Below are positions 45,001 to 51,000 of a DNA stretch of 64,000 nt, in pieces. This stretch comes from Trypanosoma brucei. Its lineage: Eukaryota. Numbering within the stretch: position 1 is the stretch's first letter; each line of letters begins with the position of its first letter. The stretch is taken from NCBI GenBank assembly GCA_000002445.1, contig CM000207.1:96001-160000 (forward strand), written 5' to 3'. The position numbers were made by a program.

Positions 45001-48000
45001 ACTCAACAAAGACGAACAATATTAAAGAAGTGCAACAGAAGTCGAGCTCAAACCAGCGAGACGATATGCACTCAAAGAGAGTAAAAACCCTAAAGTAAAC
45101 GATGTGCCCCGGCTAACTTCAATATTAAGATCAGACGTAGCGAAGACCACCGTAAGAAGAGAACTAAACGCCTCAACAACAACTTTTCTACGACCTGATT
45201 CTAACTTACGCCGACAAGAACAATAATGACTCTAATAAATTTATTTTTGAGTCGGTGACATCAGTCTCCAAGAGAGTGATGGCAGTAAGGGATAGTAGGC
45301 GACCAAACATACCCTTTATACAACGACACGACATAGCGCGGCTTTTCCTCATAATATCTCTAGCCGATGCTGCATCTGCATGCGCAGGCGACGCCGTTAA
45401 AAAAGAAGTGTGGCAACCCCTGTGTGCCGTGGCAGAGACACTGGCGGCAGCGGTGCCGGGAAGGACTGCAAACCCAAAAAAGAGCGTTAGCAGAGCAGAT
45501 TCGTGGCTCAAAGACAAACTGAAGATAATGGTATATTTTGGTAGACAGCCGCCCGGAGCAGCCACAAATCTCCGGCCGCTGCTGTAATCGCTTCCTGAGC
45601 TGCCGGCAATAACAGCCACACAGCTGCAAACGGCAATAGACGTAGCACTGAATGCACAGGCAGCCGGCAGTTACCTACAGGTCCGGATTGCTGAATTCGC
45701 AGAAATAGCTGCAGGGGCCTACGCTACATGCGGAACTCATGGGTGCCTAGAAGAATCAGGGGCAGCAATGCAGTGCAAGGAAGGCAAGCCTTGGGAAAAT
45801 GCGGTGTAGGCCCTCAGCTTGACGCTGAAGCGACGGCTAACAAAGCTATAACCAGTCCTTCGTCTCTGTTCGATGAGCTCACCACTGCCTCAGGCGATGC
45901 AACAACGACTGGAACTGTCCAGAACTACGCCCCAACTCAACACACCGGCACCAGCGTGGTGGGCGTACAAACACTAGCTGCGCCAGTAACATATTCCACC
46001 GGCTACCTCAGCCAGGCAACAGCAGGCGCCGCGATGATACACATTGTGAAGCCTGCAAAAACAGGAAAAAGAATTACAGCTGGAACCACTTATGCGGAGT
46101 TTGGCAACCTGTTCATATATGCCGCAGAGAATGAAATCGCGGCGGGCAAAGAGCATACAAAGTTCACCATTAAAGATCCGCAGGAATCGGCAGCAGCAAA
46201 CGCAGCGGCCCACCACCAGCTACTGAAGAAAACAAAAAAATACGACACAAGCAGCGACGCCGGCCCAGCAAGTGCGAAGCTAGAAGAGATCTACAAAGAC
46301 AGCGACAAGCCAACCGACCTCAAGGTATGGAAAGATATTAAAGAAACACAAATTCCAAACAAAGAATTTTCTACAAAGAAGACGGCGAGACTCCGCTCTC
46401 TGAAATACGGAGCGTTGAGCAACTTTTAAAACTACTTTCTAATTCAATAATAGCCAAAACAACGAAATAATCAAGTTAAAAGATGACGTAAAAGCTAACA
46501 AAAATAACAAACAGTCAAGCAATTCAGAAGAAGCTTGAAATAAAATCACAGACACTGACCCAAAGTCATGTAATTCTACTGAACATTGCCATTTTTACGA
46601 CACCAAACCAGCTGGAAAAAAGTGCACCTCGAAAATGGAACTGAAGGAAAGACTAGAAAAAGCAGGCCAAGAAGCAGGAGAAAAAATGGAAAGAAAGAGG
46701 AAAATGTCCAGGGAAAGGAGAGAAAGAATGTGAAGATAGTTGTAAATGGTAAGACTCAACTTGAAAAGATTACAGTTTCCTCGCAAATAAAAAATTTTCG
46801 CTGGCATCTGCTACATTGTGAGTGTGATTGCATTTTAGCATTCTTATATTCTAAGGATTTTTGCTTAATTTTATGAAAAAATTATTTTTCAAAATTATTT
46901 TTTAAATTTGATATATTTTAACACTTTTTAACAAAAACTTTGCAAAAAGTTGAAAATTGTGAATATTTAAAAAATATCAAACATATGAAATATTTATGAT
47001 AGTGGCCTGTGGGTATAAAACAATTTGGAGTAAGGTATAAAAAAATGAGTGATATTATAATTTAGTTTACTTTCTTTATTTTATGAATATTAAAAGTAAT
47101 TTAGGTTTAAAATCCAAATAAAAATATGATAATAATAATAATATTGATGATGATGATATTAATAATAATAATGATGATGAAGATGATGATGATAGGTGAG
47201 TGTTGTGAGTGTCTATATACTGATATTATTGTAATGTTAGTGTTTGTAGATACTAAATGGTTTACCGCAACAGCAACAGTCGAAACAATGTCAAGGGCGC
47301 GACAAGACCAAGTAAATAATGTGAACAGCAGCTGAGTCAAGAAGGCAGACGGAAACGCATATTGTAGAGGCTTACATTCGGGCACAAATGTAAGGATGAA
47401 CAACATTATGCCCATTGAGATGATATAGGGTAAAATAAGTAAGAGAGAAGATGAAGTGTGCAGCCCATACGGTGTCACTACGTTATTGGAAACGCAAGCG
47501 GCGGTAGTTACAAAATATATGGTGATGGAAGAGTCTTTAAAATGTTTGGTTGCCGTGGTTGCAATAGGAAAACAGTATAAATATTAGCGTTTCTGAACAC
47601 AGAGAATGAACTAACTACTGCAATTTGACAAAAATACATAGAAGGGAAATGTGAATAATTCTATGTAACAGCAGGATTCACAGAATATGCAGCACTATGT
47701 GTGGTACAAGATCACTATTAAAACAAAATATAGATGAGAGGTTTAAAAAATTGCAGAATATTGACATACACTTTTGTAACAGCTACATCATGACAATAAC
47801 TTGGAATTACTTATGTAAACACTTTGGTGAAGAACATTTACTTATTTTCTCACTATATAATTTACTTTTATAAATATTCATAGTTATAATTATTATGGTA
47901 ATAGTATCTTGTGAAGTGTTTGAAGAGCAGCTGCATAATAATAGTTTATTTAATTTATATTGTTACGGCGATAAATGCACTTGTGTCGCTATACAGCTTA

Positions 48001-51000
48001 TTTGACGTGTGTAACACTATTTTACTAGAAGTTGATGATGATGAGTATATGAAATTTGTTTCAAAATATGTGAGGAGTATTTGGAGAACTGAAAATAATT
48101 TGGTTGTGGCTGGAATACCTTTCATAGATAATAATGAAATATTGAGAAGGAGGAATTTACAGAGAAAGAAACGTGTTGGGCTTATCCTGAAGTGGCAAGG
48201 AAATCAAATAACTTTACTGGCAAGTTGCTTATAATTTATGCCATTTCACCTCATACATATAACAATTGTGAGCTAAGAGAAGTTGTTTAAGAAGGGGAAT
48301 ATTTAAACAAGTACATTATTATTTTACCTGTTTGTGATGTAAATCCAACAACAAATAAGAAAGTGGGAGAGGCGCGTAATTTGGGATGGGAAGCAGAACT
48401 CACAGTTAGTAGAAAAACATATTTGTGATTCAAATTTGCCGTTGAAATATTTTATAAAAATAGTCCCTATATAATGAAAGCAGATGATGACATTTTTATA
48501 AGAGTACCACTCTATCTGAAATATCTAGAGGTGCTTCAAAGAGAGAAATTGAACATGAGAAGGGAAATTGGATATCCTAAAGATTTTAGTGATGAAATTA
48601 CATGGCATACCATTGGATATGCGTCCACACTGTCCAAAGATGTAGTTAAGGAAATTGTGGATTATAAACCTTTGAAAGACCTAGTGAAATCACCAATTAA
48701 ATTCAGAAATTTCGAATCATATATTGATTTAAGAGCACTTAATGAAGATATTATGATTGGGGAAGTTATAAGGAACAAATTAAAATTTGAGGGTTTACTG
48801 ACTGTAGATATGCAGGTGTGTCGTTATGTGATGCATACGAACAGGAGCGCTTCCTACGAAACTAATTTGACGACTGAAAAACTATCGTTTCCCATCATAT
48901 AAGCAAACCTAACTGTATGTACCTCGAAGCAGCTACAAATATGATTCTATGGTGAAGCCCCGAATTCAAAAGTCGTACAAAAATTGACGAACGTTTTGTA
49001 GAATTTAAGTGCTAAAGTCTCCCTTCTTAAGTTCAGATAAGAGAGAAAGTTTTATAAAAACACATAGACCATCAACTACTGATATCTGCATTAAGACAAA
49101 ACCAATGTTGAAACTACGCCCCCGAAATAGTTACATCTTCTCCAACCATCTTTATGCAACTTCAAAAGGATGATGAAGGAGGTTTTTGCACTGTTGACGC
49201 CACTGGTTCTTCTGCTACCTCTTCAATTGAAAGCTTTCAAAAAAACCCAGAGTGTTTATGGTTGTAGTTCAAACTCATGCAACTCAAGGATGATGTAAGC
49301 TCATATTGAGTGCCAAACTAAGTAACATTGAAATTATTACAATTGCAATGGGAGGTTTGTATAGCCATGTTACGAGACCGACATGGGTTATGGAATTTTA
49401 AAAAAACAGAATGCAAGTGATGAGGATGTTGTAATAACTGTGAATTGATCTGATGTTATTGTTACTGAACAGGTAAGAAGTATGAGAATGCAGTGGAATA
49501 TTTTATTCATAACAACATCAAAATGTTACGCACTTCAGTTTGATTTGATTATAAACTCAGATCACAAGGAGCATGTGCAGAGATGTTATTTGTTTTTTAA
49601 ATATTGGTTACAGAAAAGAAGAGGATAAAAAATTACCTCATTTACTGAAATCACCTCCTAGTAGAAAACCTTATGTTAGTGTTGATGGTTTAATAGCAAG
49701 AGTATGGACGTTTAAAAAATTTGAATATGCTTTTGGAGAATTATTAAAAGGGGGCGATGAGTGGTGGTTTGAGCAAAGTATTTATAAGACTTTGCTGATT
49801 TACAGTACAGTTCAAAAGGAAACTGTTGGGAAGAGATTTGTCTTGAGGAGGTGAATGATTGGATTGGATTGTGAGGAACGTTTCTTTTTTATTCCATATA
49901 ATGGGGAGTTGGACGTGGCTCCACTTATTCATTATTCGGGGAACATAATTTCATGGGACCAAAAAGTGAAGTTCATTGTGAAAATCTTAGTTGGTTTCTA
50001 GACCTTATACTCCACCAACCACAGCACAAACCGCCGTCTGCGGTAACAGTGTTTTAAATAGACGGACAGGAAATCGGTCTTGTATACAGTTTTATCCGTA
50101 GAACATGCATCTCTTCAGCTGCTCTGTTCGACCATGCAAAAGACGGACCGTAACATCAGCAGGAGCAGCTGGCTAAGCGGCGGCAAGGGTCGAGGTGACA
50201 GTCTTCATTAAGAAAAACTAAGCTCTTGGAATAACCAGTAAAGCCAAAATTAGTTAAACTCCCCTATGTTGCAAGCGCACCACCACTTCACAAAAGCACC
50301 ATCCAAAACATAACTACCACAGAGCAAGGTAAGTCACAATGGAACGCACCATAAGCTGGACTAATCTTTGCCCAGCTTCAGCCACGCTTATACTGTTGCT
50401 TTTGCAACTGTCGGAAGCCGCAACTACAAATGGGAAAACGCCCTGGCTTTCAGTGCGCTCTTCGACCTTTATAATCTAAGGCATGCGACCGCGCCATCTG
50501 CGCGGGCAAGGCAATTTTTTGCAGCGGATGATGTAGTAGAAACGCTTTTTAACCTGAACCTCAAAACGGTGAGGAACACGCTTCAGAGACAAAAGATGAC
50601 GATTTTAAAGGAGTTTCGGATATCTCCGGAAGGAATGTGCAGCTGCAACCATGGGTCAGCAAAGTTAAAGCTATCGATGATCTGGGCAAGTCAGGCACTA
50701 AACCGGGGCCTTATGCACCAGTTCCATCAAACCTGTACAAGCCAATAGCCAATGCTCAAATAAGCTCGATGCACGCTCAAGCGACAAAACTGCAAGAAGA
50801 ATACACCAACGCTCTAAAAGTTATACAGGAAGCGCCAAACACAGCAGCAATACACATAGCCAACTCCATATACGGCCAAGACAAAACAACGTTCGACGCT
50901 TCAGCCTTCACCAACACCAAAAAGCAGATGTGCGGTGACTGAACAAACGGCCACGCAAACCTCTACCGCAACGTAATAAACGACATGCTTTGCCTTTGTA

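What the first reader, a model, noticed from the sequence alone, without database searches (positions are those of the whole stretch)
47911..48902. Membrane-anchored GT31/Fringe-like glycosyltransferase relic embedded in the VSG array
An N-terminal signal-anchor is followed by a GT31-like VxxGxx...RRxxxRxxW motif, a DDD (DxD) motif (MKADDDIFIRV) and an ED-x-x-G motif (NEDIMIGEV), with one frameshift. Trypanosomes have an expanded family of UDP-Gal/UDP-GlcNAc-dependent GT31-related transferases that glycosylate VSG and other surface proteins, and array-resident ESAG-like pseudogenes are common. This could be such a relic, possibly ESAG3-like, though I cannot confirm that from memory.
Basis: partly seen in the sequence, partly recalled or inferred. 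Interest (0 to 1): 0.55.

Follow-up and report, generated by a model that had tools for sequence, protein, structure and literature searches.

The report
Dead glycosyltransferase gene in VSG array
This is a broken, non-coding copy of a trypanosome sugar-transferase gene (GT67 family, nearest studied relative TbGT3) lying between two silent coat-protein genes of Trypanosoma brucei; it is an ordinary pseudogene of a kind already reported.

Summary
The window is T. brucei TREU927, from a 3.06-Mb chromosome record, inside a + strand VSG array. [quoted passage not shown] The signal-anchor, YIMKADDD and NEDIMIG motifs are all present.

- The relic runs from 47911 to 49015.
- Its ATG is now GTG.
- It has at least two frameshifts (48166-67 and about 48843-48870).
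- It has five premature stops (48288, 48426, 48863, 48875, 48953).
- The family's WG motif now reads LG.

It belongs to the kinetoplastid GT67 family (beta3GT/GT31-related, Pfam Galactosyl_T). Within it, it falls in a T. brucei-specific clade next to TbGT3 (41.5% identity). Every member of that clade I recovered is truncated or disrupted.

It is not Fringe: no member of the clade matched Fringe in Pfam. Nothing supports ESAG3 either. ESAG3 is a different GT-A enzyme, LH3-like with a DxxD motif and a cleaved signal peptide.

The relic sits between a 70-bp repeat and a B-type VSG pseudogene. Substitutions by codon position (third > first > second) show the copies diverged while still coding and decayed later, each with different lesions.

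This is an ordinary pseudogene of low interest.

The parts
47911..49015 (+). Whole GT67 glycosyltransferase pseudogene, about 367 ancestral codons read across three frames
   Evidence: tblastn of homologues covers 47938-48884 in frames +1 and +3. The tail profile extends it to 49012.
47911..47913 (+). Lost initiator codon: GTG where the homologues P0004 and P0012 have Met
   Evidence: Upstream in frame there are only stop codons.
47932..48003 (+). Remnant of the type II signal-anchor (CIIIVYLIYIVTAINALVSLYSLF)
   Evidence: Kyte-Doolittle 19-residue mean 2.47. It aligns with the hydrophobic N-termini of P0004 and P0012. TbGT3 has its transmembrane segment at residues 17-34 (PMC4339879).
48103..48165 (+). 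VVAGIPFIDNNEILRRRNLQR, the start of the catalytic domain (first conserved block)
48166..48167 (+). Frameshift 1: two extra bases (AA) between LQR and ETCW
   Evidence: Read directly from the sequence. Homologues read LQR-[E/Q/D]-TCW without a break.
48288..48290 (+). Premature stop TAA, at a Glu position of the homologues
48378..48398 (+). NLGWEAE: the GT67 'WG' motif with W replaced by L
   Evidence: Homologues have NWGWEAE. Motif definition from PMC9472816.
48426..48428 (+). Premature stop TGA replacing the Trp of SRKTYLW. The ORFs P0010, P0012 and P0015 end at the same codon.
48468..48491 (+). YIMKADDD, the donor/metal-binding DxD motif, intact
   Evidence: It fits Y(I,V,F)xKxDDD (PMC9472816). 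The Pfam Galactosyl_T match covers this region.
48741..48761 (+). NEDIMIG, the third beta3GT/GT67 motif, ED(A/V/I/L/M)(M/L)x(G/A), intact
   Evidence: PMC9472816
48843..48870 (+). Zone of the second frameshift (possibly two shifts). The exact base is ambiguous.
   Evidence: Frame +3 homology ends at about 48845. The tail profile picks up in another frame from 48839.
48863..48955 (+). Three further premature stops in the tail frame, at 48863, 48875 and 48953
49013..49015 (+). Ancestral stop codon after ...VEFKC. Homologues end W[SH]EF[ST]C.
46909..46924 (+). Context: the conserved 16-mer of the VSG 3' end (TGATATATTTTAACAC), closing the upstream A-type VSG pseudogene
47120..47240 (+). Context: 70-bp repeat (TRR run plus GTGAGTGTTGTGAGTGT core) that opens the cassette holding the relic
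50339..51889 (+). Context: frameshifted B-type VSG pseudogene downstream in the same cassette. The next 70-bp core is at 52153.
   Evidence: Pfam VSG_B on ORFs 50553-50939 and 51143-51430

Best explanation
The locus is a non-functional pseudogene of the kinetoplastid GT67 family. [quoted passage not shown]

It lies in a subtelomeric VSG array of T. brucei TREU927, between a 70-bp repeat and a B-type VSG pseudogene.

Its ancestor was most likely a type II Golgi membrane enzyme of about 370 residues. Such an enzyme would use the DDD motif and a divalent cation to bind a UDP-sugar and form a beta-linkage on GPI side chains or N-glycans, as its nearest characterised relative TbGT3 does (UDP-Gal:betaGlcNAc beta1-3 galactosyltransferase). 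That ancestral function is inferred, not shown.

The copy now cannot make that protein. It has no ATG, at least two frameshifts, five premature stops and a mutated WG motif.

It belongs to a T. brucei-specific clade next to TbGT3 (lineage 7 of Pereira and Jackson). That clade multiplied in the subtelomeres, diverged while still under purifying selection, and then decayed copy by copy.
For: - Source: the VSG at 37814-39334 is identical to EAN76228.1 of TREU927, on a 3,057,547-bp record.
- Homology: E = 9.4e-116 to 3.3e-34 against seven T. brucei or T. equiperdum hexosyltransferase fragments, 53-80% identity. The profile search adds T. congolense, T. cruzi, T. theileri and T. rangeli enzymes of about 377 residues. 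The exhaustive search finds only 256 relatives among 1.84 billion representatives.
- Placement: 41.5% identity to TbGT3 and 40-41% to T. congolense proteins, against 33-35% to TbGT8 and the chromosome-4 triplet. A neighbour-joining tree puts the relic's clade next to TbGT3. P0208 is TbGT3 because it has 377 residues and its ends match the published primers (PMC4339879).
- Fold: the TbGT3 model (pLDDT 77.9) matches B3GalT5 best (E = 4e-11), then B3GNT2 and B3GalT6. The family profile hits only GT31 chains in the PDB sequence set.
- Lesions.
- No annotated product: the closest database protein is only 80-81% identical, so no product of this locus is on record.
- History: against three related loci, mismatches in the catalytic core run 0.15-0.21, 0.08-0.12 and 0.32-0.34 at codon positions 1, 2 and 3. 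Each of those loci is broken at different places.
- Literature: GT pseudogenes and subtelomeric GT copies are already noted in PMC8477195, PMC4288722 and PMC5853035.
Against: - No expression data could be examined. Transcription, or translation of the 142-codon ORF 48474-48902, is not excluded.
- The relic's own Pfam score (22.4 bits) is just under the gathering cutoff of 23.
- The exact position and number of shifts in the tail are ambiguous.
- The tree is a quick neighbour-joining tree without support values.
- I could not see the TriTrypDB annotation of this locus.
Confidence: 0.93

Rival explanations
1. It is an ESAG3-like relic. That would be a decayed copy of the expression-site-associated O-glucosyltransferase that modifies VSG.
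For: ESAG3 is now reported to be a GT-A glycosyltransferase acting on VSG (bioRxiv 10.64898/2026.01.27.701950). ESAG pseudogenes do occur in this window's neighbourhood; an ESAG1 gene lies at 61851-62942.
Against: - None of the homologues or 64 is named ESAG3; all are GT67 hexosyltransferases.
- ESAG3 has a cleaved signal peptide (mature protein 23-368), a DxxD motif at 110-113 and an LH3/PLOD3-like fold. The relic has an uncleaved-type anchor, YxxKxDDD near residue 190 and an EDxMxG motif.
- LH3 is only rank 42 (E = 0.037) for the TbGT3 model, while GT31 enzymes score E = 4e-11.
Confidence: 0.02
2. It is a functional gene. On this reading the apparent lesions are sequencing or assembly errors, or a truncated product from the ORF 48474-48902 is active.
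For: The DDD and EDIMIG motifs are intact. The ORF 48474-48902 begins with ATG.
Against: - There are eight or more independent lesions in 1.1 kb, including loss of the ATG.
- The 142-residue ORF lacks the anchor and the whole N-terminal half of the GT-A domain.
- The conserved W of the WG motif is changed to L.
- Related copies in two other genomes are also broken.
- TREU927 is a finished reference sequence (my own knowledge).
Confidence: 0.03
3. It is a copy of a gene that was already dead when it multiplied, carried along passively as VSG cassettes duplicated.
For: - The stop at the Trp of SRKTYLW coincides with the ends of ORFs P0010, P0012 and P0015.
- The same order, 70-bp repeat, then GT relic, then VSG_B, then 70-bp repeat, is seen in L003.
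Against: - Substitutions by codon position (third > first > second) show that most divergence between copies built up under purifying selection.
- The four loci with DNA available share no lesion.
- TGG to TGA and GAA to TAA are one-step changes that can recur. The window and L003 have stops at adjacent Glu codons, not at the same one.
- The flanks downstream of the relic are not homologous between loci.
Confidence: 0.2

Closest known systems
TbGT3 (Tb927.2.3370), the T. brucei UDP-Gal:betaGlcNAc beta1-3 galactosyltransferase that modifies GPI side chains (GT67, lineage 7)
   Same: - 41.5% identity over 301 residues, making it the closest intact T. brucei protein.
- The same layout: N-terminal anchor, LQRxTCW block, YIxKADDD, and NEDxM in the place of the ED motif.
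- A similar length: 377 residues against about 367 ancestral codons.
   Different: - TbGT3 is an intact, single-copy, expressed gene on chromosome 2 (PMC4339879).
- The relic is broken, lies in a VSG array, and belongs to a separate multi-copy T. brucei clade.
- Donor and acceptor specificity cannot be inferred at 41% identity. GT67 members make beta1-2, beta1-3 and beta1-6 linkages (PMC9472816).
Other array-borne copies of the same clade in T. brucei TREU927 (P0001-P0006, P0009-P0012, P0015, P0030) and in T. equiperdum / T. b. equiperdum (L001-L003)
   Same: - 53-81% protein identity and 73-77% DNA identity.
- The copies whose DNA I could read (L001-L003) lie next to VSG genes.
- All are shorter than a full enzyme or are frameshifted.
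   Different: - Each copy has its own set of lesions.
- Some keep a long catalytic ORF, such as P0002 (345 residues) and the L002 copy. The window's copy is among the most damaged.
Mammalian GT31 beta3-glycosyltransferases (B3GalT5, B3GNT2, B3GalT6); Pfam Galactosyl_T PF01762
   Same: - GT-A fold, with a DxD motif after a hydrophobic strand and an ED-containing third motif.
- They are the best structural matches of the TbGT3 model and the only PDB sequence hits of the family profile.
   Different: - Only 16-19% identity.
- CAZy files the trypanosome enzymes as a separate family, GT67 (PMC9472816).
- The relic itself falls 0.6 bits short of the Pfam cutoff.
ESAG3, the VSG O-glucosyltransferase
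   Same: Both are trypanosome GT-A glycosyltransferase genes associated with VSG loci.
   Different: - ESAG3 is LH3/PLOD3-like, has DxxD at residues 110-113 and a cleaved signal peptide, is ER-resident, is specific for UDP-Glc and forms an 18-mer (bioRxiv 10.64898/2026.01.27.701950).
- No sequence link to the relic appeared in any search.

Membership tests
[quoted passage not shown] | Significant full-length sequence homology to family members | tested here: met
   E = 9.4e-116 to P0001, and 41.5% identity to TbGT3.
GT67 | N-terminal type II signal-anchor | tested here: met
   A hydrophobic segment at 47932-48003 has a Kyte-Doolittle mean of 2.47 and aligns to the anchors of P0004 and P0012. 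It cannot be translated, because the ATG is lost.
GT67 | 'WG' motif (PMC9472816) | tested here: not met
   The relic reads NLGWEAE where homologues read NWGWEAE. This fits decay and is not evidence against common ancestry.
GT67 | Y(I,V,F)xKxDDD motif | tested here: met
   YIMKADDD at 48468-48491.
GT67 | ED(A/V/I/L/M)(M/L)x(G/A) motif | tested here: met
   EDIMIG within 48741-48761.
GT67 | Intact reading frame able to encode an enzyme | tested here: not met
   GTG start, at least two frameshifts and five premature stops. The locus is a pseudogene member, not an enzyme.
GT67 | GT-A fold related to beta3-glycosyltransferases | tested here: inconclusive
   The fold was shown only for the relative TbGT3 (pLDDT 77.9; top match B3GalT5, E = 4e-11). 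The model of the closer P0002 was too poor to use (pLDDT 40.2). The relic itself could not be modelled.
GT67 | UDP-Gal or UDP-GlcNAc transferase activity | not testable with these tools
   This needs biochemistry, and the locus cannot encode a full protein.
Pfam Galactosyl_T PF01762 (GT31-type) | Score at or above the gathering cutoff of 23 bits | tested here: inconclusive
   The relic scores 22.4 bits, E = 1.2e-4. 18 of 30 relatives match at E up to 0.01, best 1.8e-10.
Fringe PF02434 | Profile match | tested here: not met
   No hit for the relic at E up to 10, and none for the 30 relatives at E up to 0.01.
ESAG3 | Sequence homology to ESAG3, DxxD near residue 110, cleaved signal peptide, LH3-like fold | tested here: not met
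   No ESAG3-named protein appears among the hits. The DDD lies near residue 192 in a beta3GT context. LH3 is rank 42 (E = 0.037) for the TbGT3 model. A direct ESAG3 alignment was not run because I had no ESAG3 sequence.

The most novel reading that the evidence does not exclude
The relic may mark a whole TbGT3-sister clade of GT67 genes that was functional until recently and is now disrupted in every sequenced copy.
- The copies diverged under purifying selection.
- In the window and in L003 the copy lies inside a VSG cassette, between the 70-bp repeat and the VSG.

This would mean either a recent family-wide loss of one glycosylation activity in the T. brucei group, or a pool of fragments that could be rebuilt by recombination or carried into expression sites together with the VSG.
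Probability: 0.12. Interest if true: 0.35.

Novelty: already known. Interest (0 to 1): 0.1.

Why it matters
It matters little. The locus adds one more decayed copy to a subtelomeric glycosyltransferase expansion that has already been described.

The modest points of value are these:
- It corrects the family assignment: GT67, TbGT3-sister clade, and neither Fringe nor ESAG3.
- It shows that the annotated 'putative glycosyltransferases' closest to it, such as EAN76242.1, are themselves probably defective.
- The codon-position signal suggests this clade was functional until fairly recently. That bears on counts of active T. brucei glycosyltransferases.

Tried and rejected
- Exact look-ups of P0002, P0003 and the window's VSG for encoding contigs found nothing. 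DNA of the TREU927 paralogues was therefore unavailable.
- The phmmer search of the relic against PDB sequences found nothing.
I reran it with exact pieces.
- The AlphaFold model of P0002 was unusable (pLDDT 40.2). I replaced it with TbGT3.
- The third word-indexed search, using a broad profile, returned fewer hits than hoped, but it did reveal TbGT3.
- A possible second GT relic on the minus strand at 57.6-59.3 kb is rejected. It rested on collinear weak tblastn matches, best E = 3e-4. The family HMM gives only negative scores there, and a 205-codon open frame runs on the opposite strand.
- The idea that all copies descend from an already-dead gene is weakened by the codon-position pattern and by the non-shared lesions.
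- Searching for an ESAG3 sequence through a neighbouring ORF in L003 and the PDB gave nothing.
- The supplements of PMC5853035 do not list Tb927.9 gene IDs.
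Full report
**Source and setting.** The ORF at 37814-39334 is identical to EAN76228.1, 'variant surface glycoprotein (VSG, atypical)' of Trypanosoma brucei brucei TREU927. That protein is carried on a 3,057,547-bp record. The long + strand ORFs of the window hit Pfam VSG_B, Trypan_glycop and Trypan_glycop_C, and an ESAG1 gene lies on the minus strand at 61851-62942. The conserved VSG 3' 16-mer and the 70-bp-repeat core recur in pairs along the + strand. There are 10 and 11 matches respectively, against about 0.1 expected by chance.

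**The observation.** Reading 47800-49100 in three frames shows the following:
- Frame +1 from 47911 encodes a hydrophobic N-terminus (CIIIVYLIYIVTAINALVSLYSLF, 47932-48003). It is followed by VVAGIPFIDNNEILRRRNLQR.
- Another frame from 48168 encodes ETCWAYPEVARKSNNFTGKLL..., YIMKADDD (48468-48491) and NEDIMIG (48741-48761).

A stitched translation gives Pfam Galactosyl_T at E = 1.2e-4, 22.4 bits against a cutoff of 23. It also finds seven proteins at E = 9.4e-116 to 3.3e-34. [quoted passage not shown] The feature is real and far beyond chance.

**Extent and damage.**
- Codon 1 is GTG where the homologues P0004 and P0012 have Met. Only stop codons lie upstream in frame.
- Two extra bases (48166-48167) split LQR from ETCW.
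- TAA at 48288 replaces a Glu.
- TGA at 48426 replaces the Trp of SRKTYLW.
- The family's conserved NWGW reads NLGW.
- Homology in frame +3 stops at about 48845. A profile of the homologues' C-terminal tails then matches a different frame from 48839 to 49012. It runs to the last profile position (...RFVEFKC, against W[SH]EF[ST]C) and is followed by TAA at 49013.
- That tail match scores 15.6 bits. It is the best hit of the profile in the whole six-frame window (E = 0.002), and the next-best locus scores E = 0.8.
- The tail frame carries three more stops, at 48863, 48875 and 48953.

The relic is therefore 47911-49015, with a lost start, at least two frameshifts and five premature stops. No protein identical to any of its ORFs exists in the 5.8-billion-sequence collection; the best match is 80-81% identical. 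This fits a locus that is not annotated as coding.

**Family.** The review of trypanosome glycosyltransferases (PMC9472816) defines the kinetoplastid-specific CAZy family GT67. It is a GT-A family derived from an ancestral beta3GT. Its three motifs are WG, Y(I,V,F)xKxDDD and ED(A/V/I/L/M)(M/L)x(G/A). The relic keeps the second and third motifs and has a mutated first.

An exhaustive HMMER search of 1.84 billion representatives finds only 256 relatives at E up to 0.001, so the family is small. Of 30 relatives, 18 match Pfam Galactosyl_T and none matches Fringe. The family profile hits only GT31 chains (B3GalT5, B3GNT2, B3GalT6) in the PDB sequence set, and weakly.

A model of P0002 was too poor to use (pLDDT 40.2). 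A model of TbGT3 reached pLDDT 77.9 and pTM 0.76. Its best solved-structure matches are B3GalT5 (E = 4e-11, TM 0.68 on the target), B3GNT2 and B3GalT6. LH3/PLOD3 appears only at rank 42, E = 0.037, and no Fringe structure is in the top 50.

**Placement within GT67.** Cluster look-ups identify three reference points:
- P0208/P0210 is TbGT3 (Tb927.2.3370). It is the chromosome-2 record, has 377 residues, and its termini MVSKGL... and ...ARGKC match the published primers in PMC4339879.
- P0036 is the chromosome-10 enzyme TbGT8.
- P0035 is the three-copy chromosome-4 group.

The relic is 41.5% identical to TbGT3 and 40-41% to two T. congolense proteins. It is only 33-35% identical to TbGT8, the chromosome-4 group and the T. 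cruzi and T. theileri enzymes. A neighbour-joining tree puts the relic and its close T. brucei relatives as the sister group of TbGT3, with the T. congolense proteins next. This corresponds to 'lineage 7' of Pereira and Jackson. [quoted passage not shown]

**The close relatives are all defective.** Every protein more than 50% identical to the relic has 345 residues or fewer:
- N-terminal halves that stop at SR(K/N)TYL: P0010, P0012, P0015.
- C-terminal halves that start at MKADDD: P0005, P0009, P0011.
- Near-full ORFs that lack the anchor: P0001, P0002, P0003.

The first 25 residues of P0002 align to an out-of-frame reading of the anchor region. This annotated 'putative glycosyltransferase' on the same chromosome therefore probably lacks its membrane anchor.

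Three related loci with DNA were recovered from T. b. equiperdum and T. equiperdum (L001-L003). They are 73-77% identical to the relic at the DNA level. Each is disrupted, but at different places:
- L001 has two frameshifts.
- L002 has a frameshift between the anchor and the catalytic domain.
- L003 has at least two frameshifts and two stops, and its KADDD motif has changed to KVNDD.

**History.** In the catalytic core, mismatches between the window and L001, L002 and L003 run 0.15-0.21 at codon position 1, 0.08-0.12 at position 2 and 0.32-0.34 at position 3. That is the signature of purifying selection. Together with the non-shared lesions, it indicates that the copies diverged while still coding and decayed later and independently.

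The stop at the SRKTYLW Trp coincides with the ends of three other TREU927 ORFs. It may be shared by descent within a subset. However, TGG to TGA is a one-step change, and the window and L003 carry stops at adjacent rather than identical Glu codons. Recurrence therefore cannot be excluded.

**Position in the cassette.** The order along the + strand is as follows:
- the upstream A-type VSG pseudogene, ending with the 16-mer at 46909;
- a 70-bp repeat at about 47120-47240;
- the relic at 47911-49015;
- a stretch (49240-49981) that is 71-85% identical to the flank upstream of a VSG_B in L001, so it is generic VSG 5' flank;
- a frameshifted B-type VSG from about 50339;
- the next 70-bp core at 52153.

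L003 shows the same order: 70-bp repeat, GT relic, VSG_B, 70-bp repeat. The relic thus occupies the space between the recombination-prone 70-bp repeat and a VSG. That placement offers a plausible way for such copies to be moved around, but this is inference only.

**ESAG3.** A 2026 preprint shows that ESAG3 is a GT-A O-glucosyltransferase acting on VSG (bioRxiv 10.64898/2026.01.27.701950). ESAG3 has a cleaved signal peptide, DxxD at residues 110-113 and an LH3/PLOD3-like fold, and it resides in the ER. None of these features fits the relic, and no ESAG3 protein appears among any of the hits. I had no ESAG3 sequence for a direct alignment, so this rests on the indirect evidence above.

**Verdict.** This is a decayed GT67 glycosyltransferase pseudogene. 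Predicted GT pseudogenes, and the subtelomeric location of T. brucei GT genes, are already noted in the literature (PMC8477195; PMC4288722; PMC5853035). The window is the manually annotated reference genome (my own knowledge), so I rate the finding as already known and of low interest.

Noticed in passing
window 61851-62942 (-): An apparently intact ESAG1 gene (Pfam ESAG1, E = 1.8e-115) lies on the strand opposite the VSG array. GC skew changes sign near 60 kb, which suggests a strand switch or the edge of the array.
   Followed up: partly
window 58986-59600 (+) and 57596-59305 (-): A 205-codon open frame with C2H2-like CxxC...H...H strings has no Pfam hit; it may be a degenerate retroelement. 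On the opposite strand there are three collinear weak similarities to GT67 proteins (best E = 3e-4). The family HMM does not support them, so they are probably chance.
   Followed up: partly
window 49240-49981 (+); L001 2072-2886: The stretch between the relic and the next VSG is 71-85% identical to the flank upstream of a VSG_B in T. b. equiperdum. It is a conserved VSG 5'-flank element and contains a 99-codon ORF (49555-49851) with no Pfam hit.
   Followed up: partly
P0002 (EAN76242.1), same chromosome, outside the window: This annotated 'putative glycosyltransferase' of 345 residues begins with an out-of-frame reading of the signal-anchor region. It probably lacks a membrane anchor and may itself be a pseudogene.
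   Followed up: partly
L003 5357-6534; L001 5947-7043; L002 1019-2112: Copies of the same GT clade in T. equiperdum and T. b. equiperdum also lie among VSG genes. Each is disrupted by different lesions. L003 repeats the order 70-bp repeat, GT relic, VSG_B, 70-bp repeat.
   Followed up: yes
window 42688-43026: A T-rich low-complexity block with several overlapping short tandem repeats. The surrounding 2-kb bin is the only one in the window with a strongly negative AT skew (-0.21).
   Followed up: no
window 39603-39812 and 40246-41913: Three 70-bp-repeat cores lie within 210 bp, only about 450 bp upstream of an intact-looking 555-codon B-type VSG. This spacing is much shorter than in the other cassettes of the window (1.5-3.1 kb).
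   Followed up: no
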